Source: an uncultured virus (IMG/VR IMGVR_UViG_3300048033_000643) (taxonomy: Duplodnaviria > Heunggongvirae > Uroviricota > Caudoviricetes > Crassvirales). Taken from it: DNA of 20,000 nucleotides. The stretch is taken from the IMG/VR virus record IMGVR_UViG_3300048033_000643. One strand, given 5' to 3'. This document shows positions 3,751-20,000 of this stretch, one piece after another (position 1 is the stretch's first letter; every line of letters starts with the position of its first letter). The position numbers and the translations under genes were made by a program. Under the pieces are notes generated by a model that worked only from the letters and a program-made list of their open reading frames with translations, searched no databases and was not told the DNA's origin.

Positions 3751-3751
3751 T

Positions 3752-5213: not shown

Positions 5214-5347
5214 GACATATTATAGCAATGTTAGATAATATCTATTTTGAAGTGAAAGAGTACGCACTAGAATCTGAGGATAAAGAAAAGGTTTTAGAAA
5301 AAATAAATGAAGTTCAAAATCAAGTAGAAAATTTATATGAAAAATAA
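5210..5347 (+). CDS. Small helical hypothetical protein, 45 aa (MRHIIAMLDNIYFEVKEYALESEDKEKVLEKINEVQNQVENLYEK), absent from the ORF track
   Basis: ATGA overlap with the upstream stop. Fills the gap. Confidence 0.68.
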   Translation: MRHIIAMLDNIYFEVKEYALESEDKEKVLEKINEVQNQVENLYEK

Positions 5348-5480
5348 AAAAAGACAATATCGCAGTAATCAAGGGCGAAGTCCAAAAAAAGAAAATGAAA
5401 TATTTCATCTTCTCAAATTAACTTTAATAGTATGCTCTTGTTTCGTTTTACTTTTAACTTTAGCTAAAATATTATTATGA
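5337..5480 (+). CDS. Small single-pass membrane protein, 47 aa (MKNKKRQYRSNQGRSPKKENEIFHLLKLTLIVCSCFVLLLTLAKILL), absent from the ORF track
   Basis: Basic N-terminus and a hydrophobic C-terminal stretch of about 22 aa. TGA overlaps ATG 5477. Confidence 0.7.
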   Translation: MKNKKRQYRSNQGRSPKKENEIFHLLKLTLIVCSCFVLLLTLAKILL

Positions 5481-5704
5481 ATTACAGAAAAGACAATATA
5501 GAATTAATAGGAAAAGTTTTAGAATTAGAAGGGCAAATTAAAGAATTAAAAAAAGTTCTGGTAATATCCGCTAATGAAAGAGATTTTTATAAGAAAAAGT
5601 TTTCTCAATGCAATGAGTGGGGCGGATCAGAGGAGTATGTTTCTAAAGAAGTTCCCTTAAATAAATTACTTTTAGTATTAGGAAATGATAAAAAAATAAA
5701 TTAA
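5477..5704 (+). CDS. Hypothetical coiled-coil protein
   Basis: ORF track, heptad-like N-terminal half. Confidence 0.7.
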   Translation: MNYRKDNIELIGKVLELEGQIKELKKVLVISANERDFYKKKFSQCNEWGGSEEYVSKEVPLNKLLLVLGNDKKIN

Positions 5705-5763
5705 ATTTACCTTGCTATGTATATTATTGATCCTGAATTAGAAGAACTATATCAAACACAATT

Positions 5764-5794
5764 TTTGTTTGTTTAAACGCTTTGTTTGTTTAAA
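5764..5794. repeat. 14-nt direct repeat TTTGTTTGTTTAAA x2
   Basis: Copies at 5764-5777 and 5781-5794. The first copy extends into GTTTAAAC (5771-5778). Confidence 0.85.
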
Positions 5795-5797
5795 TTG

Positions 5798-5842
5798 CGC
5801 CAACCTCTTAGTCAAAAGCTAAGAGGATTTGGTGGTAGAAAC
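5798..5842 (+). promoter_or_regulatory. Hairpin + GGATTTGGTGGTAG leader element, copy 2
   Basis: Stem CCTCTTAG (5804-5811)/CTAAGAGG (5819-5826), followed by ATTTGGTGGTAGAAAC about 18 nt before ATG 5857. Confidence 0.6.
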
Positions 5843-5856
5843 CATAATTTAATAAA

Positions 5857-6174
5857 ATGAAAAAAGATATTTTTGACTACTACGCAAATTCTGTAGCAAA
5901 ACAATTTAACATAACCTTAGAGCAGTTATTTACTCAAACAAAGGTAAGTCATATAGTAGACGCTCGACAAATTCTTTACTATCTATGTATTGAAAGACCT
6001 ATTAAAAAAAGTTACATCAAAACTTTTTTACAAGAACAAGGATATCAAGTCTCTCATTCAACTATGGAACACGGATATAAAAAAGCAGTTCAGCTTATTG
6101 AAAGCGATCCTGATTTTCAGAAAATGATTTTAGATATTAAACAACGTTTAAACGTAACGTTAAATGATAATTGA
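5857..6174 (+). CDS. Stand-alone DnaA C-terminal (domain IV) helix-turn-helix-like DNA-binding protein
   Basis: VAKQFNITLEQL...IVDARQILYYL...HSTMEHGYKK parallels the DnaA domain IV pattern (VA..Y.I....L...R....RQIAMYL...DHTTV.HA..K). Confidence 0.75.
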   Translation: MKKDIFDYYANSVAKQFNITLEQLFTQTKVSHIVDARQILYYLCIERPIKKSYIKTFLQEQGYQVSHSTMEHGYKKAVQLIESDPDFQKMILDIKQRLNVTLNDN

Positions 6175-6589
6175 AGAATTGTATTACATATTTGAGGAAG
6201 CTTTAAATGATAGAAAAGCTATAGAAACTCAGACTAAAAAAGTTCATTCCGTAATAGCTAATGGAGTTAAAATTCAAAAGTTTTCTGATCGAATAGAAAT
6301 ACTTAACATGGGGAAAGGTGGCGACTATTTCCAAGAATGCACACTTGAGGAGTATGATTTTTTCTATGATGAGGGATGGGAAGTTGGATGTTATAAGGTT
6401 AAGATTAACAACTGCATACATAAACTTAAGATAATAGAAGAAAATATTAAAACTGAAGTAAATACAAGAAAGAACGATAAGCATATTCAAAATTTAAAAA
6501 ATAGAAGAGAAAAAATTCTTCAGAAATATACTATAAATAAAAATAAATTAAATCAAATCAAATCAAATCAAAATGGAAAATTACTTTAA
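6164..6589 (+). CDS. Hypothetical protein with coiled-coil C-terminus
   Basis: ORF track, overlaps both neighbours. Confidence 0.75.
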   Translation: MIIEELYYIFEEALNDRKAIETQTKKVHSVIANGVKIQKFSDRIEILNMGKGGDYFQECTLEEYDFFYDEGWEVGCYKVKINNCIHKLKIIEENIKTEVNTRKNDKHIQNLKNRREKILQKYTINKNKLNQIKSNQNGKLL

Positions 6590-7163
6590 AAAGTTGTCAG
6601 CCATCAACGTAAAAGGAATGGCAGAAAAAAAAGGAAATTTTAATTACCTATCATGGGCAAACGCTTGGTCACTTATTAAAGAGGCTTATCCTGATGCTCA
6701 AAGAAAAGTTTATGAATCAGCACAAACAGAGCTACCTTATTTTACAGACGGCAAAACTGCTTCAGTAAAAGTTGGAATAATGGTTAATGGTATAGAACAC
6801 ATTGATTATTTACCTGTAATGGATTACAGAAACAATTCAATTCCTATAGCTAAAATTACATCTATGGATGTTAACACTGCAATACAAAGGTCTACTGCAA
6901 AAGCTATTGCTATGCACGGATTAGGTATAGCTATATTTAAAGGCGAGGATTTGGTAAATATTGCAAGTCCGAAAGCTAACGTACCTAAGGAGCCTAAGAA
7001 GGAGATTACTTACACTCTAAAGGTAGGGGGCGATAATTGGGAAAAAGTTCTTAATTACATATCTAAAAAGCGAGGAGATGGATTAGAGAAAATAATCCAA
7101 ACTTTATCTACCAAGTACAAGATTACTGCTGAGGTAAAAAAAGAAATAGCTAAAAACGTATAA
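6573..7163 (+). CDS. DUF1071 / Sak3-like single-strand annealing recombinase
   Basis: YLSWANAW, VKVGI, LPVMDYRN and NTAIQR..AKAIAMHGLG motifs. Adjacent to an exonuclease and an SSB. Confidence 0.8.
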   Translation: MENYFKKLSAINVKGMAEKKGNFNYLSWANAWSLIKEAYPDAQRKVYESAQTELPYFTDGKTASVKVGIMVNGIEHIDYLPVMDYRNNSIPIAKITSMDVNTAIQRSTAKAIAMHGLGIAIFKGEDLVNIASPKANVPKEPKKEITYTLKVGGDNWEKVLNYISKKRGDGLEKIIQTLSTKYKITAEVKKEIAKNV

Positions 7164-7164
7164 C

Positions 7165-7902
7165 ATGACAGAATCTGTAAAAGAAATTGTCGGCAATTTA
7201 GCTGATGACACAAAATATTATGGCGAGTATGGTCAACAATTTTTATCTAACTCAGACATACTTAACTTACTTAAGTTTCCAGAAAAATTTAAGGTGCCAC
7301 AAGCTAAAACAAAAGCTATGGTGGAAGGAAATTATTTTCATACTGCGATATTGGAGCCTGAAAAACTCATAGATTTTAAAGTGATAGATGTGGCTTCAAG
7401 ATCAACAAAAGCTTACAAAGAAACTTGTGGGGAGAATGAAATATTATTGCTTCAAAAAGAAAAACTTCATCTTGATAGTTTAATTGACAAGATGCAATCG
7501 AATCTTGAGATGTTCGATGAAATTTATAAAGAAGGCAACAAGTTTGAAGTTCCACAAATTTCTGAGATAATGGGCAATACTTGGAAAGGTAAAGCTGATA
7601 TTGTTACAGATGAATTTGTAATTGACATTAAAACAACAAACGACATTTCAAAATTTTATTGGAGTTGCATGAATTATAATTACGATTCACAAGCTTATCT
7701 TTATCAAAGATTTTTTAACAAACCATTAAGGTTTTATGTAATAGATAAACAATCATTTCAGTTAGGAATTTACGACTGCTCTGCAAACTTTATAGAGGGT
7801 GGTAAAAACAAAGTAGAAAAAGCAACTGAGGTGTATAATAAATTTTTTAGCAATGAAAAAACTCATAACATACATAACTACATCCATAAAGAAATTCTTT
7901 AA
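7165..7902 (+). CDS. PD-(D/E)XK exonuclease (DUF3799 / RecE exonuclease VIII-like)
   Basis: LSNSDI, G..FHTAILEP, KGKAD, IDIKTT and Y..QAYLY motifs. Confidence 0.82.
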   Translation: MTESVKEIVGNLADDTKYYGEYGQQFLSNSDILNLLKFPEKFKVPQAKTKAMVEGNYFHTAILEPEKLIDFKVIDVASRSTKAYKETCGENEILLLQKEKLHLDSLIDKMQSNLEMFDEIYKEGNKFEVPQISEIMGNTWKGKADIVTDEFVIDIKTTNDISKFYWSCMNYNYDSQAYLYQRFFNKPLRFYVIDKQSFQLGIYDCSANFIEGGKNKVEKATEVYNKFFSNEKTHNIHNYIHKEIL

Positions 7903-8044
7903 GGTCTGTAGTCTTGAAAAAACAACAAGAAAAGGAGTAATGTGGGTGGATGTTCCAAACACCTGCACCTCAAGATTAGAGAAAGATTTTATTCTCTATG
8001 ACACAATAGATAGATTGGAGCAAAAAATTAAAATTATAAAATAA
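7853..8044 (+). CDS. Hypothetical protein
   Basis: ORF track. TAATG coupling with the SSB gene. Confidence 0.6.
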   Translation: MKKLITYITTSIKKFFKVCSLEKTTRKGVMWVDVPNTCTSRLEKDFILYDTIDRLEQKIKIIK

Positions 8045-8292
8045 TGGCAGAAAACTATGTACATCCTAATGGTAGTGGTTCTTTATTTAAGAATAGCTAC
8101 AAGGAAAAAGAAAATCAGCCTGATTACAAAGGGACAATTACGTTACCAGATGGATCAGAAAAAGAATTGGCTGGCTGGAAAGGAACAACTCAATCAGGAG
8201 ATGTTAAACTTTCAATTAAAATTAGTGACAAGTATGTGAAACCTCAATCAAATGACGAAAATCAAAGCAAATCATCTGAGGATTTATTTTAA
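8044..8292 (+). CDS. Single-stranded DNA-binding protein (DUF736-like OB fold)
   Basis: GSLFKN..K....PDYKG...LAGW motif and an acidic C-terminal tail ending EDLF. Confidence 0.75.
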   Translation: MAENYVHPNGSGSLFKNSYKEKENQPDYKGTITLPDGSEKELAGWKGTTQSGDVKLSIKISDKYVKPQSNDENQSKSSEDLF

Positions 8293-8300
8293 GTAACTAA

Positions 8301-8384
8301 GCATCAAATCAGGAGAAGCCACACTCAAGGAGGAGGCGAGATTTACTGACGAGTAATTAAGGTTCGATTCCTTTTTTGATGCCA
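8301..8384 (+). ncRNA. tRNA-like element or degenerate tRNA (acceptor stem, T-arm and variable-arm hairpin; no D-stem)
   Basis: GCATCAAA (8301-8308)/TTTGATGC (8375-8382), AAGG-TTCGATT-CCTT (8359-8373), TTACT-GACG-AGTAA. Confidence 0.55.
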
Positions 8385-8402
8385 ATTTAATCAAACAAAC
8401 AA

Positions 8403-10814
8403 ATGCAAATAACAATATTCAAGGACATAAAGGTTACCTCTCAGCCTTTTTATAGAGATGTCCATGTTATTCTAAAAAGAATACAAGAGGGAGCATCTAA
8501 AGACTTAGTAAAAAAAATAAGAGCAGAAAAAAACAAGGAGGCAAGGAATTTGTTAAAACAAAAGCTCCCCGCTGTTTGTTTCAGTGGAAAGTTTACTAAA
8601 AGAAATGATAAATCTTTACAAGAACATAGTGGGTTGCTGTGTTTAGATTTTGATGGTTATTCTACAACTAAAGAGATGTTGTCAGATAAAGAAAAACTTA
8701 CTAAAAACAAACATATTTATAGTGTATTTGTTTCTCCAAGTGGAAAGGGATTAAAAGCGTTAGTAAGAATACCTGCTGATCCAGAGAATCATGTCAATTA
8801 TTTTGTAAGCATTCAAAACAATTTAAACTCTACTTATTTTGACAAAACCTGTAAGAATATTTCAAGGGTTTGTTATGAATCATACGATCCGTTAATCTAT
8901 ATTAACGAACAATCAAGTACATGGGACAAAATTGAAGAGGAGCAGTACACAGAGGTTACTAAAAACATAGATATACCTACAATCCCAATTACAGATGAAA
9001 ATAAAATTGTAGATATTTTAAAAAAATGGTGGGAAAAAAAATATCCTATGGTTGAAGGTCAACGAAATCATAATGTGTTTGTATTAGCTTCAGCATTTAA
9101 TAGATTCGGTGTTTCTAAAACCTTAGCCGAGTATGTCATGAATACTTTTTCATCTCAAAATTTCAAACAAGGAGAAATAAAAAGAACTATCAATTCAGCT
9201 TATCAAAATGTACAAGACTTTGGCACCCAATACTATGAAGATGAAGACAAGGTTAATTTAATTAAAGCTAAGTTAAAAAGAGGAGTGCCAAAAAAAGAGA
9301 TCCGATCTCAATTAGAGGAAGAAAGTATTGAGGTCGGCACAATAGATAATATAATCCATAGGCTTGAGGATGAACAATCAAGTCAAAAATTTTGGTCTAT
9401 ATCAGAAAAAGGTGTTGTAAAAATTATACACATATCGTTTAAACACTTCCTAGAAGAGCATGGATTTTATAAATTTAATCCAGAAGGAAGTAAGAACTAT
9501 GTGTTTGTTAGAGTAACAAATAACTTAATTGATCACACAAGTGAAAAAGAAATTAAAGATTTTATATTAAACCATTTAATAGAGCTTGATGAAATTCAAG
9601 CTTATAATCACTTTGCTGAATGTACAAGGTATTTCAGGGAAGAGTTTTTGACTTTGCTTTCATCTATTGATGTGTATTTTATTGAAGACACAAAAGGTAG
9701 TGCTTATCTATATTACAATAACTCAGCAGTAAAAATAACATATAATGATATAACCTCTATTGATTATTTAGATTTAGGAGGTTACGTTTGGAAGGATCAT
9801 GTAATTGATAGACCATACATTAAATGCGAATCAACAGACTGCGATTATAAGTCGTTTATAGAGAATATTTGTAATGGCGAAAAAACTAGAATAAACTCAA
9901 TGAAATCTACGATAGGTTATTTATTACATGCGTGGAAAAATTTATCCTATTGTCCCGCAACCATATTAAATGATGAGGTTATTTCTGATAATCCTGAAGG
10001 TGGTACAGGTAAAGGTTTGTTCATGAATGCTTTAGGACACATGAAAAAATTAGTAGTGATTGATGGTAAGTCTTTTAATTTTGAAAAAAGTTTTGCTTAT
10101 CAACTTGTAAGTGCTGACACACAAATACTTTGTTTTGATGATGTAAGTAAGCATTTCAATTTTGAAAGATTATTTTCTGTAGTTACAGAAGGGTTAACCT
10201 TAGAAAAGAAAAATAAAGATGCAATTAAAATACCATTTAAAAAATCTCCAAAAGTATGTATCACTACAAACTATGCTATAAAAGGGAAAGGCAGTTCGTT
10301 TGAAAGAAGAAAATGGGAGCTAGAATTAGCACAACATTATAATAGAGACAACACTCCGATAAGAGAGTTTGGAAGATTAATGTTTGGGGAATGGGATGAA
10401 GATGAGTGGTGTGCTTTTGATAATTACATGATAGAATGTTTGCAAATGTATTTACAACATGGTCTTATTAAAAGTGAGTTTGTAAATCTTAAAATTAGAA
10501 GATTGTCAGCTGAGACATGCCATGAGTTTATAGAGTGGTGTGGGTTGTTAAAAGGAATGAATGAACATGAGTCGTTGCAACTTAATAAAAGATCGAATAA
10601 ACAAGATTTGTACATTGATTTTATTGAAGACAATCCAGACTTTGCTCCAAAAGCAAAGTTAACTATATCAAGAACTAAATTTTATAAATGGCTAATAGCT
10701 TATAATCAATTTAAATATGACTGTGATCCTGAAGAAGGTCGAGACAACACTTCGAGGTGGATTAGATTTAGAAATAAGCATGAACTAGAAGAAAACTTAG
10801 AAATAGAATTTTAA
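8403..10814 (+). CDS. Primase-helicase: BT4734/VirE N-terminal primase domain, PriCT-like domain and P-loop helicase
   Basis: K.KLPAVCFSGKF, GLLCLDFD, FVSPSGKGLK, DKTCKNISRVCYESYDP, EGQRN, Walker A GGTGKG, Walker B ILCFDD, ITTNY. Confidence 0.88.
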   Translation: MQITIFKDIKVTSQPFYRDVHVILKRIQEGASKDLVKKIRAEKNKEARNLLKQKLPAVCFSGKFTKRNDKSLQEHSGLLCLDFDGYSTTKEMLSDKEKLTKNKHIYSVFVSPSGKGLKALVRIPADPENHVNYFVSIQNNLNSTYFDKTCKNISRVCYESYDPLIYINEQSSTWDKIEEEQYTEVTKNIDIPTIPITDENKIVDILKKWWEKKYPMVEGQRNHNVFVLASAFNRFGVSKTLAEYVMNTFSSQNFKQGEIKRTINSAYQNVQDFGTQYYEDEDKVNLIKAKLKRGVPKKEIRSQLEEESIEVGTIDNIIHRLEDEQSSQKFWSISEKGVVKIIHISFKHFLEEHGFYKFNPEGSKNYVFVRVTNNLIDHTSEKEIKDFILNHLIELDEIQAYNHFAECTRYFREEFLTLLSSIDVYFIEDTKGSAYLYYNNSAVKITYNDITSIDYLDLGGYVWKDHVIDRPYIKCESTDCDYKSFIENICNGEKTRINSMKSTIGYLLHAWKNLSYCPATILNDEVISDNPEGGTGKGLFMNALGHMKKLVVIDGKSFNFEKSFAYQLVSADTQILCFDDVSKHFNFERLFSVVTEGLTLEKKNKDAIKIPFKKSPKVCITTNYAIKGKGSSFERRKWELELAQHYNRDNTPIREFGRLMFGEWDEDEWCAFDNYMIECLQMYLQHGLIKSEFVNLKIRRLSAETCHEFIEWCGLLKGMNEHESLQLNKRSNKQDLYIDFIEDNPDFAPKAKLTISRTKFYKWLIAYNQFKYDCDPEEGRDNTSRWIRFRNKHELEENLEIEF

Positions 10815-10816
10815 TT

Positions 10817-12052
10817 ATGGAATTAAGAGATTATCAAAAAGAGATTGTTAGATTAGGTGTAAATGTTTTAAAAGAACACAAATTTGTTTATCTTGCCATG
10901 GAAGTTAGGACTGGCAAGACACTTACGAGTTTGAGTATTTGTAAGACTCTTGCTGTTTCTAACGTTTTATTCATTACAAAAAAGAAAGCTATATCCAGTA
11001 TTCAAGATGATTACGACTTACTCAATCCTGATTTTTCTATTACTATTATTAATTACGAGTCGCTTCATAAAATAGATTCATCTCTGTATGATGTTGTAAT
11101 ATGTGATGAAGCTCATGGTATGGGTGCTTATCCTAAGCCTAGTAAAAGAGCAAAAGATGTAAAATCTTTAATACAAGTAAACAAAAATCCTTCTGTAATA
11201 TTATTATCTGGAACACCTACACCAGAGTCTTATTCTCAAATGTATCATCAAGTTTATGCTTTACCAGGCAACCCGTTTAAACAGTATAAAAGTTTCTATA
11301 AATTTTCACATCAGTACGTTAATATTACACAGAAAAAAATAGGGCCAACAAGTATTAACGATTATAGTGATGGTAAAGAGTCAATTCTTTATGAAATGAA
11401 ACCATACATGATTTCTTTTACACAGCAAGAAGCCGGTTTTAAAACACAAATTACTGAAGAGATATTAACTGTAGCAATGCATGAGTCAACTCATAACATG
11501 GTTAAAAAACTTAAAAAAGAAAGAGTTCTACAAGGTCAAGTAGAAGTTGTGTTGGCTGACACAGCTGTAAAACTTATGTCTAAAATTCATCAGCTGTATT
11601 CAGGAACTGTTAAGTTTGAAAGCGGAAATTCAGGTGTAACAGATTGGGCAAAAGCTAAATTTATACATGGTTATTTCCAAAACAAAAAGATAGCTATATT
11701 CTATAAGTTTAAAAAAGAATTAGAGGCTATTACTGACATATTTGGCGAGTCTGTAACTACAGATTTAAAAGAATTTAAAGAAACTAACAAGTGTATTGCT
11801 TTACAAATTGTTTCAGGAAGAGAAGGTATTAGTTTAAAAGAAGCTGAAGCTCTTGTGTATTATAACATTGATTTTAGTGCCACAAGTTACTGGCAGTCAA
11901 GAGACAGGATGACTACTAAAGACAGGCAGTATAATAAAATTTACTGGGTGTTTGCTGAAAATGGTATAGAGCATCAGATTTATAAAACTGTTATAGGTAA
12001 AAAGGATTACACTTTAAATCATTTTAAAAGAGATTTACTTACACTTAGATAA
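10817..12052 (+). CDS. SNF2-like / SF2 DEAH helicase
   Basis: LRDYQ, MEVRTGKT, INYESL, DEAH, LSGTP, SGREGISL and QSRDR motifs. Confidence 0.88.
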   Translation: MELRDYQKEIVRLGVNVLKEHKFVYLAMEVRTGKTLTSLSICKTLAVSNVLFITKKKAISSIQDDYDLLNPDFSITIINYESLHKIDSSLYDVVICDEAHGMGAYPKPSKRAKDVKSLIQVNKNPSVILLSGTPTPESYSQMYHQVYALPGNPFKQYKSFYKFSHQYVNITQKKIGPTSINDYSDGKESILYEMKPYMISFTQQEAGFKTQITEEILTVAMHESTHNMVKKLKKERVLQGQVEVVLADTAVKLMSKIHQLYSGTVKFESGNSGVTDWAKAKFIHGYFQNKKIAIFYKFKKELEAITDIFGESVTTDLKEFKETNKCIALQIVSGREGISLKEAEALVYYNIDFSATSYWQSRDRMTTKDRQYNKIYWVFAENGIEHQIYKTVIGKKDYTLNHFKRDLLTLR

Positions 12053-12291
12053 TGACAGAACAACAAATACAAAGTAAAAGAATCAAAGAGCTAGAAGCTG
12101 AAGGCTACTACGTTTTAAAATTGATTAAAACAAACAAGAATGGTATTCCTGATCTTGTGGCATTTCCAAAAAACTGTAATGTTTTGTTTTCTGAAATAAA
12201 AAAACCAACAGGTAAAGTATCCAAGCTTCAAGAATATAGATTAAAAGAGTTAGAAAGTTATGGGTTTAAAACAGAAATATATAAAGGATGA
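12052..12291 (+). CDS. VRR-NUC domain nuclease (Holliday junction resolvase-like)
   Basis: E..IQ, GIPDL, FSEIK.P.GK.S.LQ motifs, directly downstream of the SNF2-like helicase. Confidence 0.85.
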   Translation: MTEQQIQSKRIKELEAEGYYVLKLIKTNKNGIPDLVAFPKNCNVLFSEIKKPTGKVSKLQEYRLKELESYGFKTEIYKG

Positions 12292-12536
12292 ATAAATTAG
12301 AAGAAGAAATAGAATATTATAATTCATACAAAAAAAACCTTATACAGTTTATAATACACTCTTGCTCGTATGCAAAACAAACTAAAACAGTTAAAAGGAT
12401 AAGATTAACTGCTAATGAAATTTTGGGTTTACAAAAAGAGATTTGTAGGGTAGAATTGTTTATTTATGATCTAAAATTAATTAAAAATCCAGATGATTCT
12501 ATATTAAATTATCTAAATAATAAACATTTAAATTAA
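12288..12536 (+). CDS. Hypothetical protein
   Basis: ORF track, ATGA coupling. Confidence 0.65.
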   Translation: MNKLEEEIEYYNSYKKNLIQFIIHSCSYAKQTKTVKRIRLTANEILGLQKEICRVELFIYDLKLIKNPDDSILNYLNNKHLN

Positions 12537-12561
12537 TTTCACTATATTTAAAATTAAAACA

Positions 12562-12684
12562 ATGGCACAAAACGTAATTGAAAACGAAATTTTTGAACAT
12601 TTTAGAGTTGAAGAAAAAAAAATTACTGATGCAACTATTTTATTAAAAGAAAAAGGTTATATTATAATAAAAAAGAAGGCATAG
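12562..12684 (+). CDS. Small hypothetical protein, 40 aa (MAQNVIENEIFEHFRVEEKKITDATILLKEKGYIIIKKKA), absent from the ORF track
   Basis: A-rich leader. Fills the gap and ends 3 nt before ATG 12688. Confidence 0.65.
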   Translation: MAQNVIENEIFEHFRVEEKKITDATILLKEKGYIIIKKKA

Positions 12685-12687
12685 TAA

Positions 12688-12882
12688 ATGGCTCATAAAA
12701 TTTCAGTTGATGATGTGAATGCAATCAAGCACATTAATTATGTGACTAATAACTCTCACGACCTTGTAACTGAACTCTACGAAGATCTTATGGAGCGAGA
12801 TCATAATGAAGCAAAACTCAAAGCTCAGAACATTTGTCAGATCATGACAGAATTAATTAACTCTTTATCGGATGAAGTCTAG
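12688..12882 (+). CDS. Hypothetical helical protein
   Basis: ORF track. Confidence 0.7.
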   Translation: MAHKISVDDVNAIKHINYVTNNSHDLVTELYEDLMERDHNEAKLKAQNICQIMTELINSLSDEV

Positions 12883-13972
12883 AAAGGCTGAAGGCCCGAG
12901 ACTTAGGTTGTCTATTGAGGAGGTAGATATGATTCGTGAGCTTCGTGCTCAAAATTTAGAAAACGTTAATGACAACTCTGCTTTAACTGATCATTTGAAT
13001 GAAAGAGGTATTGATAAAAATGATGTTATCAGTGTAAAGCATTGGCAAAGTGCAAGTGGTGAGTATAGGTTTTCAATAGTAACTAAAGAAAATTTAGCAT
13101 TAAAAGAAAATCTAATATTTGAAAAAGTAAATAAGTTTGTTGAAGAACATTCTCCAGACTACAAACCTATAAAAAGAAAAAAGCAAACGGATCCGCACCT
13201 GCTTGTTATTAATCCTGCTGATATTCATATTGGAAAGTATGCTAAAGCTCTTGAGACTGGAGAAGAATACAATTCTCAGATAGCAGTTGAAAGGGTTATG
13301 GATGGTATACATGGTCTTATTGACAAGGCTCAAGGTTTTCAAATAGAAAAAGTTTTGTTTTGTATAGGTAATGATGTGTTGCACATTGACAATGTTTACA
13401 GTACAACAACAAAAGGAACACCACAGGACACGGATGGTAAGTGGTGGGAACACTACGAGCTTGCTTTAGCTTTATATGTAGAGTGTATAGAAACATTAAG
13501 AAAGATTGCTCCAGTAGATGTAGTTCACAGTATGAGTAATCACGATTATCAATCAGGCTTTCATTTAGCTCACACCTTACAAGCCTGGTTCCGGAAAGCA
13601 AAAGATATAACTTTTGATGTCACAGTAGCACACAGAAAGTATTATAAGTATGGAACATCTTTAATAGGTCTTGAGCATGGTGATGGAGCTAAAATGGATA
13701 ACCTTCCTCTTCTTATGGCACAGGAAAAACCCCAGATGTGGGCTAATACAAAAACTAGATATTGGTACTTACACCATATACACCATAAAGTCAAGCATAA
13801 GTGGAGAGACGCTAAGGACTTCGTAGGAGTCACTGTAGAGTACATGAGGTCTCCTTCGGCAGCAGACAGCTGGCACGCCCGAAAAGGCTTTACAGGCGCT
13901 CCTAAAGCCTGTGAGGGGTTTGTACACCATAAAGAGCTTGGGCAAGTGGCTAGATTAACTCACTTCTTCTGA
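12872..13972 (+). CDS. Calcineurin-like metallophosphoesterase with N-terminal extension
   Basis: Metal-binding motifs DIHIGK, GNDVLHID, SNHD, EHGD and HHIHH. Confidence 0.85.
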   Translation: MKSRKAEGPRLRLSIEEVDMIRELRAQNLENVNDNSALTDHLNERGIDKNDVISVKHWQSASGEYRFSIVTKENLALKENLIFEKVNKFVEEHSPDYKPIKRKKQTDPHLLVINPADIHIGKYAKALETGEEYNSQIAVERVMDGIHGLIDKAQGFQIEKVLFCIGNDVLHIDNVYSTTTKGTPQDTDGKWWEHYELALALYVECIETLRKIAPVDVVHSMSNHDYQSGFHLAHTLQAWFRKAKDITFDVTVAHRKYYKYGTSLIGLEHGDGAKMDNLPLLMAQEKPQMWANTKTRYWYLHHIHHKVKHKWRDAKDFVGVTVEYMRSPSAADSWHARKGFTGAPKACEGFVHHKELGQVARLTHFF

Positions 13973-14306: not shown

Positions 14307-17300
14307 TTAAAAAGGAGATTTAGGCATGCCACTGCTTCTCCTATTACTAAATGGAGATTTAGGGCCAGAGGGTTTATTACTTTTTTTAGTTTTATTTTTC
14401 TTTTTCTTTTTAGGAATGTAAGTGTTTTCTTTTGCTTTTCTTGTTTTTTTATAAGCTCTAAAATTATAATCCATTATTGCCCCTGCCTCAAGCGGCAAAA
14501 ATCCTAATAAATATAATGTGTACATAGGAGCTTGAGCTAAAAGATCATTTTTATATTTTGGATCCATTTCTACTTCTCTACCATATCTATCTTTATATTT
14601 ACCTGTTGTCGCTAAAGAAACCATATCCACAATTTGCAAGGCTTTTTCCCCACCAATTCCTAACACACCTAACCTATCTAATAACCCTTCAGGCTGATTT
14701 ACAAAAAATTGAAAAGGATCATCGCTATCAAATGTTGCTATTAAAGCGTTAGTAGCTTGTAAAACCTCAGGATTCACTAAAGGAATTGGGCTAACTATAT
14801 CTGCAAAAGCTTGCCCTTTTCTACCTTTTTTTCTATTTTCAAATTGCTTTAACAAAGTTTCTTCATCTTCATCTGTTCCTCTTAGCGCCCTGGCCGCTCC
14901 AGCTAAAGATTGTGTTATAAATAATCCAACCGCATTAAATGTTGCAGTTTCTGCAACTAATCCTCCAAGAGATTTTCCAGCTTTTAGTTTATCTTGTACT
15001 GTATTTGATTTAGAAAACACTGCACCTAAATCATTATACATCCTTGTTTTTTGATTTAATAAAAAGTTTGCAAAAGGAAAAGCTACTTTTCGTAAAACCT
15101 GAAGAACTGGATCTTTACTTGCAAACAACTCCCCTTGTAAATCTACATCCGATGTATTTTGTTGTCTTGCAACCTGTTGAGTGGCATAATTTAACGCCTT
15201 ATCATTACTCTTGTGCGTACTCCAATCTATATTATTAGAATCAATATTTTGTTTTTTTAAACTTTCTAAATAATAAGCCATAAAAGAAGCTCTTGCCGCA
15301 AATCTGTCAGGATTTACAAGAAAACCTTGCAACCAACCTTTTTGAGCTTTATTAATTACATCCCCAAATTTTCCTGCTTTACCTGTAGAATCTGTTTCTA
15401 ATCTAGAATCTGTTCCTTCGAGGTTAGTCACTGCCTGCACTCCTCTATTAGCGATCTCAACCCCTGAATTATCTAGCCATTTTATTGCATCTGTGTTTGT
15501 ACCTATTAAATTAATTCCTTTAAAAACAGCACTAGGATTATTAATTGTATTTATAAAAGTATTAATTAAAGGAACCATTTGTTTTACATATTGAGTTGGG
15601 CCACCAAGAACTCTTGATACACCTAAGCCTGCAAAACGATTTAAATTTCTTAACCATTTTTCTTGTCCTTTTTGTAAACCTCGTTTTTTTTCTACATATC
15701 CTTTAAATCTTTCTTTTATTAACTTCCTGTCTTCTGTGTTAGGTATAATTTTTTCAAATGAAGGTGAAGACATAAACCCTTTTAATTGTTGAATTCCTGG
15801 AGCAGTATTAACATCGGTTAGAGCAGCTCTTAAATTATTAACATTATTACTATCAAAACCTAAATTTACATATCTATTTGTATTTCCATCCTTATCCATA
15901 GGCAAAACAAAAGAAGGTTTTTTAACTTTTAAAACTCCAGTCTCTTTATCATATACCGTCTCATTAGTGTCAGGCTGAAAAATAGGTTTGTCTAAACTTG
16001 GTTCTGATTCTACACCGTCTAATTTAGAAAAAGAATCAGGTGTATAATTTAAATCTTTACCTAAGGTTCTATTATATATATTTAAAGATACATCTTCTAA
16101 TTCAGGACGAGCTTTTGACCATTCATTAGTCATCCAGTCTACTGCACTTTTATTTATTGGATCAGTTTTTTTATCTACTTCATTTATACTGTTAGAGTTT
16201 TTTAACAATTTATCAAAAACTTTTTGATAATTTTCTGCTTTTTCGGTTTGACCATTATCTTTTAACTCTTTAATACTTAATTTTACAAGGCCCTTTCTTC
16301 TGTTAAATTCTTGGTCTTGTTCCGCTTCAGTTCCGTCAACTGTTCTTCTCATAAAAGCAAACACTCCTCTTTCAAGATCATTCTCTACATCATTAAATCT
16401 TTTTCCATTAGGCATTGTTTTAGTGTTACCTAATTTTACATTACTTCGTAGTCCGCCTGGATTTATAAATTTATCATAATACGCTTCAGTTATGTTTTGA
16501 GCAAGTTTATCAGCTTTAGCAACTCCGTTCCTTATAGTTGTAAAACCACTTATTTTTTCAAACAACAAAGCTTTGCTTTGAGATTTAAACATTTGTTCTA
16601 TGCTTTGAGGTATAGATGCTATGAATTTATTCCAAGCGTTACCTAACATTTTACCTCCAAATAAGAACTTTAAAGGTTTTGCATTTAATTTATTTTCATT
16701 ATCTACAGCATTTTGCCTTCCTTTAGCAAAATTAACGATAGCTTTTAAACCCCCTACACTTTGATTTGTAGCAAAGTTATTCATAGCAAGTAAAGCTTTA
16801 GCTCCATCTTCAGACGGTAAATTACTTATGTCAGTTTTTAAAAATTCAGATACAATTTTCTTGTCTTTTTGAGATATTTTAATTTCTTTACCAGTGAACG
16901 GATCTTTTCCTGTTTTAATAATTTGATCAACTACAGCTGAATATTTACCAAAAGCATTTTTTAAACCTTTAGCTATTACGCTTTTTTTTGTTTGTCTTAG
17001 TTTTGTTTTTTCTTCTGCGCTAAGATTATTAGTTTCAAAATTATAAAGAATTCTTTGCAGTTCGTTTAAACTAAAATCTTTAGGATCCAAGCCGGTTAAA
17101 TCTGCAAAAGCTTTTTGTTCCGCTTTAGTTTTAATTTTATCTTGCAACACTTGTTCTGCTTTAGTATATTTATCTATACTTTCTATATTAAGTGCTTCAG
17201 AAATTTTTACATCTCCTTTTTTTGAAGTTTTAATTGGAGTTAATCCTTGCACTACAGAATTAGCGTTAGCTACAAAAGATTCTAAATCATTAATGTTTTC

Positions 17301-20000
17301 GGGTTTTAATTTTATAAATTCTTTTGCAGAATTTACAACTTCAGCCGGCGCATTAGAATTTTTAATAAGTCTTTTAATTCTTTTAACAACCGATTTTGCT
17401 TTTTTAATTTGTTGTGAATTCTTTTTTACATCTTCTACTTCCGTCTTTTGGTTTTGCGTTTGACTTTCTGTTTCTTTTTGGCTCTGGTTGGTAACGGCCC
17501 CGGTGGTGTCTCCTTTGACCACCTTTTGGCCATCTCCGGTTTGTTTTTGTACATCCACGCCCTCTGTGCTTGACTCTTGAATGGCATCTTGTTTGTCTTT
17601 AATTAGTTCTTCTTGTTTCTTTAAAATATTAGCTTCAGATTCTAAAATAGCAGGGAGTTTAGATTTTAACCTCACTTCATTCTCAGCTTGTAAAGCTTTG
17701 ACAGCTTCTTCTTTAGTAACCTCAACAGTTCGTTGACCGTCTTTTTCTCCATCTATAATAGACTGAGCTTCTGCAACATCTCTTTCTTGTAATTTTTTTA
17801 TTTGCGCATCTACATCTTCAATTCTTTTGTCTATTTCTTCTTTCAAAGGCCCCTCAAGACCTTCTTTTTGGTCAATTAATCTTTGTCTTTGCTCCAGTAA
17901 ATCAGCTGCCTCCTCAACATTTTGAGACATCTTTATTGTTCCTTTTGTTTTTAATTCAGCAGCTTGCATATTATAAATTTCACTATATGCGTTTGCTGCC
18001 TCTTCTTTACTTAAAGAACCTTCATCAATTAATACATCTAAAGTTTTTTTAAGGTCTTTAACATCAGTAGCTAAAGTTCTGACTAAATCTTTTCTTTTGT
18101 TTCCAGTCAGTAATTTTCTACCTCCTAATGTAGAGGTAGCGCCAATAGTCATTACGCCTGTCTCTATTACACCAGCTGCTGTTATTTTTTGATCTAAAAC
18201 TTCGTTACCTATTTTTTGATTTACTAAATAGTTTATACCTTTTTCAGAAAAATATACAGGCAATTCTTCCACAAAAAGTTCTTTCATGTTTTCTTTTCCA
18301 AGAGCTAAACCTTTATCTACTAACTGTTTTTTTGTAAATTTTTTACCTTCTTTAATAGCTAGATTCTTAACCTGGTCTTTAATAGCTTGAAATCCTACAA
18401 GTAATCCTTCATTGCTACCAGCTAGTCCTGAAAAAATACCATCCAATGTTGATATGGCTTGACCTGCATTTACTGCAATATCCATAGCTTCTTTTTCGCT
18501 CATACCTGTAGCCATTAATTGACTTCTAATATCATCTACATTTTTTACTACACCACTTGTAAAAGAAGTAAGCCCCATTGATACTTTACCTGCTGTGTTT
18601 GGTTTTAAAACTTTATTCAAACCTGTAGCATTTTTAACTTTACCAGCAGTTCTAATAAGAGCAACTAAGTTTACAATAGTATTTACGCCTCCAGTAGCAA
18701 CCGATCCTCCTGTCCAATTTATTACTGTATTAGGAACGTCTTTTGACCTTTTAATAATTGAATTAATTTTCTCTTCAGACAATATACCCTCCATTCTAAT
18801 GTTAGAATTAGAATCATACACTGTACCATTGCCATCAACAATAAACTCCTCACCTTCAAAAGTTACAGGCTTGCCTTCTAAAAAAGCAGGTCTTTTTAAT
18901 TCACCCAATTCTAAATCAACCCTATCGCCGCTATCCGTAATCATCTCACTTACCCCCGCTAAAAAACCTTTTTTGTCGTATCCAAAAGTTGCTAAACGTT
19001 GGTCAATCATACCGGGAATTCCGCCAACAAAATCTGTTGCAAAAGAAGTTAATGCTGTACCTCCAGTTTTTAACAATTCAATACCGCCTGCTGACAACTC
19101 TGCTCCTCCTCCTTTTTTAAAATTATTGTAAAGCTCTCTTCGTCTTTCCAATTCATCATCAAAAGCCTGATCTTTATATGTAGGAAACGAATCTATGGCT
19201 GACTCTAACGAAGAGTAAGTATTCATAAACTCTTTTTTCAATGAAGAAGCTTCTTTCTTTAGTGCTTTTATTTCTTCAGGATTTGTCGATAAACTTTGTG
19301 CAGCTTCATTTGCCGCAATCTTATTAGTTATTGTATTTAACTTAGAGGCATTATATGATTGTAATTTTTCATATTGTCTTTTCTCTAACTGATATTGATT
19401 TCCTTCATCGGTTGGTAAAAGTTTTTTAAAAAATTTATAAACCGAACCTTCTTGCCTGGTATTTTTTTTCTCCCATTTCAAATAATCTTCCTGATCTACA
19501 TTGTTCTCCATCAATATTTCTTGATTTATTGTGTCAGGATTATTATAATCTTCTTCAGTTAATATTACCTCTTCTTTTTTTACTACTTTAGGGTTAGCTT
19601 TTTCGTATAATTTAATAGCTTTTAGAATATTTTCTGGAATTTCAGATTCTTTTTTTAAAGAAAACTCACCTGTTTCTGGATCTTTGATTTGATAAGATTC
19701 TCCAGCCAAAACCTTCATGGTATCTATGTTTTCCATTTGCGGTTTATTAGAATCGAAAAATCCTACAGAATTTAAAATATCTATATTACTTTGATTTTCT
19801 AATAAAGTTTGTTGATTTTCAGGAAGAGTTTCGTCAAAATCTATATCTATTTCTTCTTCAATTACTTCTGAACCAACCGAAGATCCAGGAGGCTGAACCA
19901 CTTCTGTACCTGATACCAATTCCTCTTCTTGAACAATAGGTTCGGAAGAGTCTTTTTTTTTTACAGAATCATTAAACCCATACTGTACTTTAAACTCCTC
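14307..20000 (-). CDS. Very large (>1897 aa, 5'-partial) probable virion structural or DNA-ejection protein
   Basis: The frame stays open past TTG 19919 to the window edge (EEFKVQYGFNDSVKKKDSSEP...). Helical and coiled-coil composition, Gly/Ala-rich hydrophobic segments and a basic C-terminal tail. Late-strand orientation. No catalytic motif recognised. Confidence 0.7.
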   Translation of the reverse strand, partial: EEFKVQYGFNDSVKKKDSSEPIVQEEELVSGTEVVQPPGSSVGSEVIEEEIDIDFDETLPENQQTLLENQSNIDILNSVGFFDSNKPQMENIDTMKVLAGESYQIKDPETGEFSLKKESEIPENILKAIKLYEKANPKVVKKEEVILTEEDYNNPDTINQEILMENNVDQEDYLKWEKKNTRQEGSVYKFFKKLLPTDEGNQYQLEKRQYEKLQSYNASKLNTITNKIAANEAAQSLSTNPEEIKALKKEASSLKKEFMNTYSSLESAIDSFPTYKDQAFDDELERRRELYNNFKKGGGAELSAGGIELLKTGGTALTSFATDFVGGIPGMIDQRLATFGYDKKGFLAGVSEMITDSGDRVDLELGELKRPAFLEGKPVTFEGEEFIVDGNGTVYDSNSNIRMEGILSEEKINSIIKRSKDVPNTVINWTGGSVATGGVNTIVNLVALIRTAGKVKNATGLNKVLKPNTAGKVSMGLTSFTSGVVKNVDDIRSQLMATGMSEKEAMDIAVNAGQAISTLDGIFSGLAGSNEGLLVGFQAIKDQVKNLAIKEGKKFTKKQLVDKGLALGKENMKELFVEELPVYFSEKGINYLVNQKIGNEVLDQKITAAGVIETGVMTIGATSTLGGRKLLTGNKRKDLVRTLATDVKDLKKTLDVLIDEGSLSKEEAANAYSEIYNMQAAELKTKGTIKMSQNVEEAADLLEQRQRLIDQKEGLEGPLKEEIDKRIEDVDAQIKKLQERDVAEAQSIIDGEKDGQRTVEVTKEEAVKALQAENEVRLKSKLPAILESEANILKKQEELIKDKQDAIQESSTEGVDVQKQTGDGQKVVKGDTTGAVTNQSQKETESQTQNQKTEVEDVKKNSQQIKKAKSVVKRIKRLIKNSNAPAEVVNSAKEFIKLKPENINDLESFVANANSVVQGLTPIKTSKKGDVKISEALNIESIDKYTKAEQVLQDKIKTKAEQKAFADLTGLDPKDFSLNELQRILYNFETNNLSAEEKTKLRQTKKSVIAKGLKNAFGKYSAVVDQIIKTGKDPFTGKEIKISQKDKKIVSEFLKTDISNLPSEDGAKALLAMNNFATNQSVGGLKAIVNFAKGRQNAVDNENKLNAKPLKFLFGGKMLGNAWNKFIASIPQSIEQMFKSQSKALLFEKISGFTTIRNGVAKADKLAQNITEAYYDKFINPGGLRSNVKLGNTKTMPNGKRFNDVENDLERGVFAFMRRTVDGTEAEQDQEFNRRKGLVKLSIKELKDNGQTEKAENYQKVFDKLLKNSNSINEVDKKTDPINKSAVDWMTNEWSKARPELEDVSLNIYNRTLGKDLNYTPDSFSKLDGVESEPSLDKPIFQPDTNETVYDKETGVLKVKKPSFVLPMDKDGNTNRYVNLGFDSNNVNNLRAALTDVNTAPGIQQLKGFMSSPSFEKIIPNTEDRKLIKERFKGYVEKKRGLQKGQEKWLRNLNRFAGLGVSRVLGGPTQYVKQMVPLINTFINTINNPSAVFKGINLIGTNTDAIKWLDNSGVEIANRGVQAVTNLEGTDSRLETDSTGKAGKFGDVINKAQKGWLQGFLVNPDRFAARASFMAYYLESLKKQNIDSNNIDWSTHKSNDKALNYATQQVARQQNTSDVDLQGELFASKDPVLQVLRKVAFPFANFLLNQKTRMYNDLGAVFSKSNTVQDKLKAGKSLGGLVAETATFNAVGLFITQSLAGAARALRGTDEDEETLLKQFENRKKGRKGQAFADIVSPIPLVNPEVLQATNALIATFDSDDPFQFFVNQPEGLLDRLGVLGIGGEKALQIVDMVSLATTGKYKDRYGREVEMDPKYKNDLLAQAPMYTLYLLGFLPLEAGAIMDYNFRAYKKTRKAKENTYIPKKKKKNKTKKSNKPSGPKSPFSNRRSSGMPKSPF
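17435..17587 (-). CDS. Nested overlapping small basic protein, 50 aa (MPFKSQAQRAWMYKNKPEMAKRWSKETPPGPLPTRAKKKQKVKRKTKRRK), in the +1 frame of the giant gene
   Basis: ATG at 17587-17585 and TAG at 17437-17435, with an A-rich leader. Local GC is elevated. The sequence resembles a small MPFKS.AQR.WM...P..AKRW..ETP..LP phage protein pattern that I recall as stand-alone ORFs. Confidence 0.65.
   Translation of the reverse strand: MPFKSQAQRAWMYKNKPEMAKRWSKETPPGPLPTRAKKKQKVKRKTKRRK

What the first reader, a model, noticed from the sequence alone, without database searches (positions are those of the whole stretch)
17435..17587. Hidden 50-aa gene nested out of frame inside the giant virion protein gene
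Seen: in the +1 frame of the giant - strand ORF, under the linker DAIQESSTEGVDVQKQTGDGQKVVKGDTTGAVTNQSQKETESQTQNQKTE, there is a clean ATG-to-TAG ORF encoding MPFKSQAQRAWMYKNKPEMAKRWSKETPPGPLPTRAKKKQKVKRKTKRRK. Its leader (AACTAATTAAAGACAAACAAG-ATG) is A-rich with A at -3, like the other starts in this window. The stretch is visibly more GC-rich than the rest of the gene and uses GC-ending host codons (GGC, GTG, ACC, GGG, GCC), as expected under dual coding. The host frame here is a low-complexity, disorder-like linker, a permissive place for overprinting. Recollection, not a search result: MPFKS.AQR.WM....P..AKRW..ETP...LP resembles a widespread uncharacterised small phage protein usually found as a stand-alone gene. 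Inference: a highly basic peptide, perhaps a DNA-condensing, core or ejection accessory protein, co-expressed from inside its partner gene and invisible to standard gene callers.
Basis: partly seen in the sequence, partly recalled or inferred. Interest (0 to 1): 0.85.

Follow-up and report, generated by a model that had tools for sequence, protein, structure and literature searches.

The report
Conserved small gene nested inside giant phage gene
A 50-codon gene for a very basic little protein really is hidden, one base out of frame, inside a giant phage gene, and the same arrangement recurs unannotated in dozens of other marine phages.

Summary
Window 17435-17587 (-) is an ATG-to-TAG ORF of 50 aa in the +1 frame of a giant ORF, under a local GC spike (0.48 against about 0.30).

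It is not a chance ORF. The peptide belongs to a large, unnamed small-protein family (MPFKSQAQRxWMYxNKPEMAKxWExETPxxLP plus a basic tail). The best single-sequence E-value is 6.6e-12. A profile finds 3,830 cluster representatives.

Of 81 family members examined in DNA:
- 43 lie nested, always at the same +1 offset. Hosts are giant genes (3.8-9.4 kb) or roughly 400-aa genes placed between portal and capsid genes.
- 38 stand alone.

Nested copies keep the ATG, the open frame and the conserved residues. Their changes are mostly synonymous in the peptide frame (264 against 93). They avoid T at third positions, which keeps the host frame open and explains the GC spike. They carry Shine-Dalgarno-like sites in GC-richer phages and A-rich leaders in AT-rich ones.

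The same domain starts more than 90 longer proteins fused to MuF, ART-PolyVal, InPase, NUDIX or lysozyme domains.

Translation has not been shown directly, and the function is unknown. A virion- or DNA-associated role is inference only.

The parts
17435..17587 (-). Nested 50-codon gene (ATG 17587-17585, TAG 17437-17435). It encodes a member of the MPFKS small-protein family: a helical hairpin plus a polycationic tail.
   Evidence: ORF and translation. Homologues down to E 6.6e-12. Alignment with M1 P2 S5 Q8 P17 A20 invariant. AF2 model with pLDDT 83 and helices 6-15 and 17-26.
17588..17608 (-). A-rich, unstructured leader of the nested gene (AACTAATTAAAGACAAACAAG). It has A at -3 and no Shine-Dalgarno site.
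   Evidence: Sequence. The 20 nt upstream are 60% A, which is the top 10% of positions in this host gene. The fold energy of -30..+10 is 0.0, the top 9% least structured. No Shine-Dalgarno-like pairing. No promoter-like site upstream on the - strand.
14307..20000 (-). Host gene: a giant ORF cut at its 5' end by the window. 1,897 aa are visible; the full protein is 1,945 aa by an identical database protein. It reads through the nested gene in frame 0.
   Evidence: P0283 is 1,945 aa and 100% identical, and 281 homologues share the C-terminal 600 aa. No Pfam or PHROG family matches.
17438..17587 (-). Host-frame acidic, low-complexity linker (residues 805-854 of the visible translation), encoded by the same bases as the peptide.
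   Evidence: Across nested loci the host-frame stretch is 24% D+E and 10% K+R, while the peptide is 30% K+R.
17450..17599 (.). GC spike (0.48) that marks the dual-coded stretch.
   Evidence: In AT-rich phages, nested copies exceed their flanks by +0.139 GC (n=30), against +0.025 for stand-alone copies (n=11). T at third positions is 4% against 22%, p = 2e-6.

Best explanation
Window 17435-17587 (-) is a functional protein-coding gene embedded in the +1 frame of a giant phage gene.

Proposed mechanism:
- The giant gene is translated straight through the stretch as an acidic, disordered linker.
- Ribosomes also start internally on the same mRNA at the nested ATG. The start uses an A-rich, unstructured, Shine-Dalgarno-free leader, the kind used by Bacteroidota hosts (recalled knowledge, not tested here).
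- This internal start yields a 50-aa protein: an N-terminal two-helix hairpin (MPFKSQAQRAWMYKNKPEMAKRW) followed by a proline-rich stretch and a polycationic tail.

The peptide frame is the older and more strongly constrained of the two. The host frame is constrained mainly to stay free of stop codons. That constraint removes T from the peptide's third codon positions and raises local GC.

The product's role is inferred, not shown. The same module forms the extreme N-terminus of many phage proteins fused to MuF, ART-PolyVal, InPase, NUDIX, lysozyme and SAM-lyase domains. It is also nested in virion-module genes. The most likely role is therefore a virion- or DNA-associated adaptor made late in infection, with the basic tail binding nucleic acid.
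For: SHOWN

1. Family membership. 29 small homologues at E <= 0.01, best 6.6e-12. A profile search finds 3,830 cluster representatives at E <= 1e-3 and 659 at <= 1e-10. The invariant and near-invariant residues are all present in the window's copy.

2. Recurrent nesting. Of 81 members read in DNA, 38 lie wholly inside a same-strand ORF of at least 900 nt, and 20 of those hosts are at least 3 kb. In 5 more the host frame is open but the host is short or cut by a contig end. In 38 that frame is closed. In all 38 long-host cases the offset is +1.

3. The stand-alone copies evolve as a coding gene. Codon-position entropy is 0.72/0.53/1.37. Nested copies keep the same ranking: 0.70/0.47/0.94 in giants and 0.76/0.57/0.97 in the roughly 400-aa hosts.

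4. Substitutions on a minimum spanning tree of 42 distinct nested sequences: 264 are synonymous in the peptide and non-synonymous in the host, and 93 are the reverse. The neutral opportunity is 0.148 to 0.222.

5. Stop avoidance. Phe3 is TTC in 43 of 43 nested copies, because TTT would create TAA in the host frame. Stand-alone copies mix TTT and TTC. T3 is 4% against 22%, and the GC excess is +0.139 against +0.025.

6. Start signals. 9 of 12 nested loci with host GC >= 0.42 have a Shine-Dalgarno-like site at percentile <= 0.09 of their own host gene. None of the 26 AT-rich loci do. In the AT-rich loci the 20 nt upstream are in the top 10% for A content in 19 of 26.

7. A close relative. A prophage copy in genome G001 is 89-94% identical overall. 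The peptide is identical. The only 2 differences in the 153 nt are synonymous in the peptide and change the host residues (E>K, S>G). Identity is 98.7% here against 93.7% in the next 1 kb.

8. Population data. 8 variant places listed inside the ORF in metagenome contigs: 6 are third positions, all synonymous by my reading of the codons, and 2 fall in the variable codon 10.

9. Fused forms. In 96 of 120 longer proteins listed, the module begins at Met1, upstream of MuF, ART-PolyVal, InPase, DUF5661, NUDIX, GH24 and tail lysozymes, SAM lyase, LigD_N and EncFtn-like domains.

10. A cultured phage. Flavobacterium phage vB_FspP_elemoF_6-3D has an unannotated 42-aa copy at +1 offset, at residue 1220 of its 3,694-aa 'structural protein'.

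INFERRED: internal initiation, timing of expression, and any virion or DNA association.
Against: - There is no direct evidence of translation: no ribosome profiling and no peptide detection.
- RNA-library contigs cover the stretch, but they cannot show transcription, strand or start sites.
- The loci are related to one another, so counts over loci are not independent events.
- The 80 viral loci are the best of at least 409, chosen by similarity to intact peptides, so broken copies may be under-sampled.
- The window's own leader is only moderately unusual (A content at percentile 0.10).
- Gene neighbourhoods of stand-alone copies are mixed. About 6 sit beside terminase, portal or head genes, and about 7 beside endonuclease VII, primase, ligase or ribonucleotide reductase genes. 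This weakens a purely structural role.
- The family has no characterised member: Pfam and NCBIfam give nothing, and PDB sequence and fold searches give nothing.
Confidence: 0.85

Rival explanations
1. Captured fossil. A small stand-alone gene was swallowed when two neighbouring genes fused by read-through. Its frame is no longer translated and only looks intact because the capture was recent.
For: The peptide family is clearly older than the host linker. Host genes differ between loci. No expression data exist.
Against: - Nested copies are deeply diverged from one another (45-95% aa identity), yet all 43 keep the ATG, the open frame and the conserved residues.
- Their substitutions favour peptide-synonymous changes 264 to 93.
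- Shine-Dalgarno-like or A-rich leaders are kept inside the host genes.
Confidence: 0.06
2. Frameshift fusion. Ribosomes start at the nested ATG, translate the MPFKS module, then slip -1 in the A-rich tail into the host frame. This would make an MPFKS-tagged C-terminal half of the giant, copying the in-frame fusions seen elsewhere.
For: The module is normally N-terminal to cargo domains (96 of 120 longer proteins). The tail is A-rich, and the host frame lies -1 relative to the peptide frame.
Against: The window has no X_XXY_YYZ slippery heptamer in the peptide frame. Such heptamers are no commoner in nested copies (7 of 41) than in stand-alone copies (10 of 32). The nested ORFs end in a conserved strongly basic tail followed by a stop, just like the stand-alone proteins.
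Confidence: 0.05
3. The conservation is at the nucleotide level. Under this reading the stretch is a recombination joint or an RNA element, and the peptide is incidental.
For: - In relatives, extra domains (ART-PolyVal and another) are inserted exactly at the 5' edge of the nested gene, flanked by a repeat of its first bases.
- Many unrelated contigs share only the first 50-60 nt (depth spike of about 1,057 against about 45-55, with unlike flanks).
Against: Stand-alone copies vary freely at synonymous sites while keeping the amino-acid sequence (third-position entropy 1.37). The module exists as an in-frame protein domain in hundreds of longer proteins. A recombination role could exist alongside coding but cannot replace it.
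Confidence: 0.03
4. Chance ORF in an alternative frame of a long gene.
For: Alternative-frame ORFs of 40-50 aa do occur. One other lies on the same strand of this gene.
Against: Homology at E 6.6e-12 in 5.8 billion sequences. A full-length match including the start.
Confidence: 0.01

Closest known systems
Rz1 embedded in Rz (phage lambda spanin genes; embedded, overlapped and separated architectures). Recalled knowledge, not a tool result.
   Same: A small gene lies wholly embedded in the +1 frame of a larger phage gene and is translated from its own start. Across phages the same small gene occurs either embedded or separate.
   Different: The product has no lipoprotein signal and no Cys. It is unrelated in sequence. 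The hosts are a giant virion or polyvalent-type gene and a gene in the scaffold position, not a lysis gene. The embedded gene is the older, more conserved partner.
phrog_1375 (PHROGs v4, unknown function)
   Same: 18 of 30 family members match it, best E 5.1e-7. Both are small uncharacterised phage proteins.
   Different: The window's peptide itself reaches only E 0.054. The PHROG carries no function and no note of nesting.
Polyvalent proteins of phages (Iyer et al. 2017, PMC5512222; I read only the passages returned by a term search)
   Same: The host giant has a 96%-identical variant with an ART-PolyVal domain. The MPFKS module is fused N-terminally to MuF, ART-PolyVal and InPase, which are domains of that class.
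   Different: The words 'overlapping' and 'frameshift' have 0 occurrences in that paper's main text. No out-of-frame nested gene is described there. The window's giant has no recognisable Pfam domain.
Classical overprinting in small viruses (phiX174 genes B, K and E; reviewed in PMC8227390, seen in a search listing only)
   Same: Two proteins are read from one stretch of DNA in different frames, with a compositional signature.
   Different: Here the nested frame is the ancient, widely distributed one and the host-frame stretch is the young, weakly constrained one. The same nested gene sits in several different host genes.
Pfam DUF3008 (PF11450)
   Same: It is the nearest Pfam-bearing cluster in the ESM Atlas feature search (score 0.82, a lead only). 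It is also a small viral protein.
   Different: No hmmscan match for the peptide or for any of the 30 family members at E <= 1.

Membership tests
MPFKS small-protein family (unnamed; defined here by alignment A1) | N-terminal M-P-F-K-S, then Q8, R9, W11-M12, N15-K16-P17-E18-M19-A20, W23 and T27 | tested here: met
   All of these residues are present in the window's peptide. They are invariant or at least 90% conserved columns of the 30-sequence alignment.
MPFKS small-protein family (unnamed; defined here by alignment A1) | Significant sequence similarity to family members | tested here: met
   phmmer E 6.6e-12 to 5e-3 for 29 proteins. tblastn E 1e-14 to 2e-8 for 80 viral loci.
MPFKS small-protein family (unnamed; defined here by alignment A1) | The module starts at the protein's own Met1 and is followed by a K/R-rich tail | tested here: met
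   The window ORF starts at this Met, with a stop 5 codons upstream, and its tail is KKKQKVKRKTKRRK. Among longer relatives, 96 of 120 begin with the module.
phrog_1375 | Profile match at a significant E-value | tested here: inconclusive
   P0001 scores E 0.054. 18 of 30 relatives match at E <= 0.01.
Embedded o-spanin (Rz1-like) | Embedded in the +1 frame of a partner gene | tested here: met
Embedded o-spanin (Rz1-like) | Lipoprotein signal peptide with a lipobox Cys | tested here: not met
   The translated sequence has no Cys and no hydrophobic signal.
Polyvalent protein (for the host giant) | Several effector domains of the polyvalent set in one giant phage polypeptide | tested here: inconclusive
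   The window's giant has no Pfam or PHROG family. The 96%-identical P0284 carries PF18760 ART-PolyVal. Other giants with the nested gene hit the C-terminal parts of phrog_10089 (DarB-like) and phrog_11358.
Pfam DUF3008 | Match to PF11450 | tested here: not met
   No hit at E <= 1 for P0001 or for any of the 30 relatives.
Programmed -1 frameshift cassette | X_XXY_YYZ slippery heptamer in the upstream frame | tested here: not met
   None in the window's ORF, and no enrichment in nested copies.

The most novel reading that the evidence does not exclude
The MPFKS hairpin is an ancient, portable N-terminal tag of proteins that travel with phage DNA. In a large group of marine, mostly Flavobacteriia-type phages, a free copy of it is encoded inside the disordered linkers of the virion-module genes themselves: the giant polyvalent-type protein and the protein in the scaffold position. 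On this reading the linker arose by read-through across a pre-existing small gene ('reverse overprinting'). The gene's conserved 5' edge also serves as the joint where effector domains such as ART-PolyVal are swapped into the giant protein.
Probability: 0.25. Interest if true: 0.85.

Novelty: new variant of a known kind. Interest (0 to 1): 0.74.

Why it matters
- **Annotation gap.** Gene callers forbid fully nested same-strand genes. This gene is therefore missing from annotations, including a RefSeq record of a cultured Flavobacterium phage, even though the family has thousands of members.
- **An unusual model of dual coding.** This is a clean, statistically strong case in large dsDNA phages. 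The old, conserved frame is the small nested one, and the host frame is merely kept open. That is the reverse of textbook overprinting.
- **A practical signature.** Three features together could be used to find further hidden genes: a GC spike, loss of T at third positions, and a host-frame 'shadow' motif (DAIQESSTEGVDV...TGDG).
- **A lead on virion cargo.** The module sits at the N-terminus of MuF, ART, InPase, NUDIX and lysozyme fusions. This marks it as a candidate handle for how phages load or deliver cargo proteins, which is testable in a cultured phage-host pair.

Tried and rejected
- **Complex prediction.** Portal (804 aa, 14-row alignment) with nested peptide (41 aa, 14 rows) from the portal-adjacent loci gave score 0.00 and verdict 'no answer' (collected). 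This is not evidence either way.
- **Fold searches.** Foldseek against PDB found nothing at E <= 0.001. BFVD returned only uncharacterised members of the same family.
- **Sequence searches against known families.** A PDB sequence profile search gave only chance-level hits. Pfam and NCBIfam gave nothing meaningful.
- **Earlier findings of this scan.** Nothing was found by sequence.
- **Whole genome.** None is held for this window. I used the nearest genome, G001, instead.
- **Megablast of the giant gene against deposited phages.** No match.
- **Internal promoter.** No sigma-70-like site upstream on the - strand, and no TANNTTTG match near the nested start. The Bacteroidota motif was recalled from memory.
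- **-1 frameshift idea.** No slippery heptamer.
- **RNA runs.** X15 covers only 17647-17797. X16 has short contigs over the ORF. Contigs in an RNA library show neither transcription, strand nor start.
- **Literature.** 'MPFKS' anywhere in full text returned 7 papers, none relevant among the 6 listed. An overlapping-gene term search listed nothing on this family. The Baltic Flavobacterium phage paper PMC7077304 does not mention the elemo phages (term search only).
- **Two ambiguous loci.** L013 (peptide upstream of or inside a terminase ORF) and L048 may not be true nesting, so I did not lean on them.
Full report
**1. The observation**

On the - strand, the window reads ...AACTAATTAAAGACAAACAAG ATG CCA TTC AAG AGT....

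- ORF 17435..17587 (-) is listed. It translates to MPFKSQAQRAWMYKNKPEMAKRWSKETPPGPLPTRAKKKQKVKRKTKRRK*.
- It lies wholly inside ORF 14307..20000 (-), which runs off the window. The host frame here reads ...KDKQDAIQESSTEGVDVQKQTGDGQKVVKGDTTGAVTNQSQKETESQTQNQKTE....
- The nested ATG starts at the second base of a host codon, which is a +1 offset.
- GC reaches 0.48 in 17450-17599, while the rest of the gene lies between 0.25 and 0.41.

**2. It is a member of a real protein family**

- A single-sequence search of 5.8 billion proteins gave 29 small proteins (39-81 aa) at E <= 0.01, the best at 6.6e-12.
- Their alignment has the consensus MPFKSQAQRAWMYANKPEMAKxWExETPxxKLP followed by a K/R-rich tail. 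M1, P2, S5, Q8, P17 and A20 are invariant, and all of these are present in the window's copy.
- A profile search of 1.84 billion cluster representatives found 3,830 at E <= 1e-3 and 659 at <= 1e-10. In nearly all of the 150 listed, the match starts at residue 1.
- The family has no Pfam or NCBIfam model.
- It overlaps phrog_1375 (unknown function): 18 of 30 members match, though the window's copy reaches only E 0.054.
- No solved relative exists. BFVD returns only uncharacterised family members.
- An AlphaFold2 model (pLDDT 83) gives two helices, 6-15 and 17-26, and then an extended tail.

**3. The nesting is recurrent, and that is the main result**

Pattern scans of IMG/VR found at least 409 contigs encoding relatives, and the best 80 were fetched.

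Reading the DNA of 81 members (79 of those loci, one deposited phage and the window) gave the following:
- 38 peptides lie wholly inside a same-strand ORF of at least 900 nt.
- In 5 more the other frame is open but the host is short or cut by a contig end.
- In 38 that frame is closed.
- L008, missed by my pattern, is a further stand-alone copy.
- In all 38 long-host cases the offset is +1.

Hosts fall into two size classes.
- **Giants of 3.8-9.4 kb:** 20 loci including the window.
- **Genes of about 1.1-1.3 kb.** In 14 loci with complete flanks these directly follow a portal-like gene of about 800 aa. They precede a capsid-like 'virion structural protein' (terminase, portal, host, phrog_13704). 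This is the scaffold position, inferred from gene order only.

The giants are heterogeneous. Some match phrog_32588. Others match only the C-terminal parts of phrog_11358 and phrog_10089 (DarB-like). Some match nothing. BLASTP of the window's giant against the other hosts matches only around the overlap.

**4. Both frames are under selection, the peptide frame more strongly**

- Stand-alone copies show the classic coding pattern, with entropy by codon position of 0.72/0.53/1.37. Nested copies keep the same ranking: 0.70/0.47/0.94 and 0.76/0.57/0.97. The peptide's third position, which is the host's first, varies most. The host's third position varies least.
- On a minimum spanning tree of 42 distinct nested sequences, 264 changes are synonymous for the peptide and non-synonymous for the host. 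93 are the reverse. The mutational opportunity is 0.148 to 0.222.
- The host frame is kept open. Phe3 is TTC in all 43 nested copies, because TTT-AAR would make TAA. Stand-alone copies mix TTT and TTC.
- In phages with flanks below 40% GC, nested ORFs have 4% T at third positions against 22% in stand-alone copies. Their GC exceeds the flanks by +0.139 against +0.025 (30 against 11 loci, both p = 2e-6).
- The host-frame product of the overlap is acidic (24% D+E). The peptide is 30% K+R.

**5. Start signals inside the host genes**

- Of 12 nested loci whose host gene has GC >= 0.42, 9 have a Shine-Dalgarno-like site ahead of the nested ATG, at percentile <= 0.09 of their own gene. Examples are AAAGGAGGAC and TAAGGAGGGG.
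- None of the 26 AT-rich loci have such a site.
- In those 26, the 20 nt upstream are in the top 10% for A content in 19 cases. The start region is less folded than most of the gene, at a median percentile of 0.17.
- The window's values are 60% A (percentile 0.10) and a fold energy of 0.0 (percentile 0.09).
- This fits Shine-Dalgarno-independent initiation as known for Bacteroidota. That point is recalled knowledge and was not tested here.
- No promoter-like site precedes the nested gene, so internal initiation on the giant's mRNA is the simplest reading. This step is inferred.

**6. Close relatives and populations**

No assembly is held for the window. The nearest genome, G001, is a 4.5-Mb bacterium that carries a prophage copy of the giant at 89-94% identity.

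- The peptide is identical there.
- The only two differences in the 153 nt are third-position changes, silent in the peptide, that alter the host protein (E>K, S>G).
- Identity is 98.7% in the overlap against 93.7% in the next kilobase.
- G001 holds five nested copies in all. Three are in giant genes. Two are in roughly 400-aa hosts: one is confirmed in the terminase-portal-host-capsid order, and the other was not mapped. They include a two-cysteine variant, MPFKSKAQMKACY...W(D/N)CKKW.

Metagenome contigs laid on the window pile up over the first 50-60 nt of the nested gene, with depth about 1,057 against about 45-55 and unlike flanks on both sides. Of 8 variant places listed inside the ORF, 6 are third positions, all silent by my reading. 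The other 2 fall in the variable codon 10.

**7. A cultured example**

Flavobacterium phage vB_FspP_elemoF_6-3D (NC_055853.1) has MPFKSKAQMKACYSQDNPKWDCKKWSKETPSKKSLPNKVKKK* at 52379, at +1 offset. This is residue 1220 of its 3,694-aa 'structural protein' gp18. No CDS is annotated for it.

**8. What the product may do**

- A search for longer proteins gave 221 hits. In 96 of the 120 listed, the module is the exact N-terminus.
- It is followed by its basic linker and then by one of these domains: MuF, ART-PolyVal, InPase, DUF5661, NUDIX, GH24 or tail lysozyme, SAM lyase/DUF3293, LigD_N, DnaJ, cupin, AAA_18 or EncFtn-like.
- Several of these belong to the 'polyvalent protein' set that Iyer et al. 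propose is packaged and injected (PMC5512222, passages only).
- The window's giant belongs to a family of at least 281 proteins with a conserved C-terminal 600 aa. Its 96%-identical variant carries ART-PolyVal.
- Of 120 such giants, 32 show the full host-frame 'shadow' of the nested gene, and many more show variant shadows at the same place.
- Stand-alone copies sit beside terminase or portal genes in about 6 loci, and beside DNA-metabolism genes in about 7. A strictly structural role is therefore not established.

My best guess, with low confidence, is a small DNA- or virion-associated adaptor.

**9. Comparison and novelty**

The arrangement works like Rz1 inside Rz: an embedded +1 gene that is also found separate in other phages. 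It is not a spanin, because it has no lipobox and no Cys.

It differs from classical overprinting because the nested frame is the ancient one.

I found no description of this family or of the nesting in the full-text searches.

I rate it a new variant of a known kind. The computational evidence is strong, direct proof of translation is lacking, and the function is unknown.

Noticed in passing
L086 (G001:C10) oriented giant residues about 860-1045; window 17588-17600: In the G001 relative and in database giants P0284, P0330, P0364 and P0372, an extra domain is inserted exactly at the 5' edge of the nested gene. The domain is ART-PolyVal in P0284 (which G001's copy resembles) and a different domain in the other three. 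The insertion is flanked by a repeat of KDKQDAIQE, that is, of the first bases of the nested gene. This looks like a hot spot for swapping domain cassettes.
   Followed up: partly
L087 5408-5554, L088 5399-5268, L089 (G001:C9:41772-41966), L093 11380-11508: A two-cysteine subfamily of the peptide (MPFKSKAQMKACY...W(D/N)CKKW) is nested in the same way in giant genes and in a scaffold-position gene. The paired Cys residues suggest a disulfide or a metal site in the hairpin.
   Followed up: no
window 14307-14420 (-): The giant protein ends in a lysine-rich stretch and a repeated PKSPF motif (...KKKKKNKTKKSNKPSGPKSPFSNRRSSGMPKSPF*). This ending is conserved in the G001 copy. Its meaning is unknown.
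   Followed up: no
window 1-13972 (+): The + strand carries a replication and recombination module that converges on the giant gene: Sak-like annealing protein (6573-7163), exonuclease (7165-7902), an 803-aa protein with a primase/helicase-like N-terminal region (8403-10814), helicase (10817-12052), an endonuclease-like 79-aa protein, and a DNA repair exonuclease (12872-13972).
   Followed up: partly
L043 122-241 and L044 618-737: In two viral contigs the stand-alone peptide gene ends 1 nt into a roughly 635-aa gene (portal-like in L044; no family hit in L043). In L024 and L042 it lies between the terminase and portal genes. This hints at translational coupling with the portal gene.
   Followed up: partly
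L028 2940-9782: One giant host has weak hits to a zincin-like ATLF domain (E 4.5e-4, below the Pfam cut-off) and to the C-terminal part of a DarB-like PHROG. This is consistent with the polyvalent-protein class.
   Followed up: no
P0083, P0112, P0116: Three database proteins carry the MPFKS module, with its Met retained, at the C-terminus of a small HTH (LuxR/TetR-like) protein. They may be true fusions or read-through gene calls.
   Followed up: no
window 17448-17573 (+), 17293-17463 (+), 17581-17736 (+): Three short opposite-strand ORFs (41-56 aa) overlap the same stretch. I found nothing to suggest they are genes, but they were not searched.
   Followed up: no
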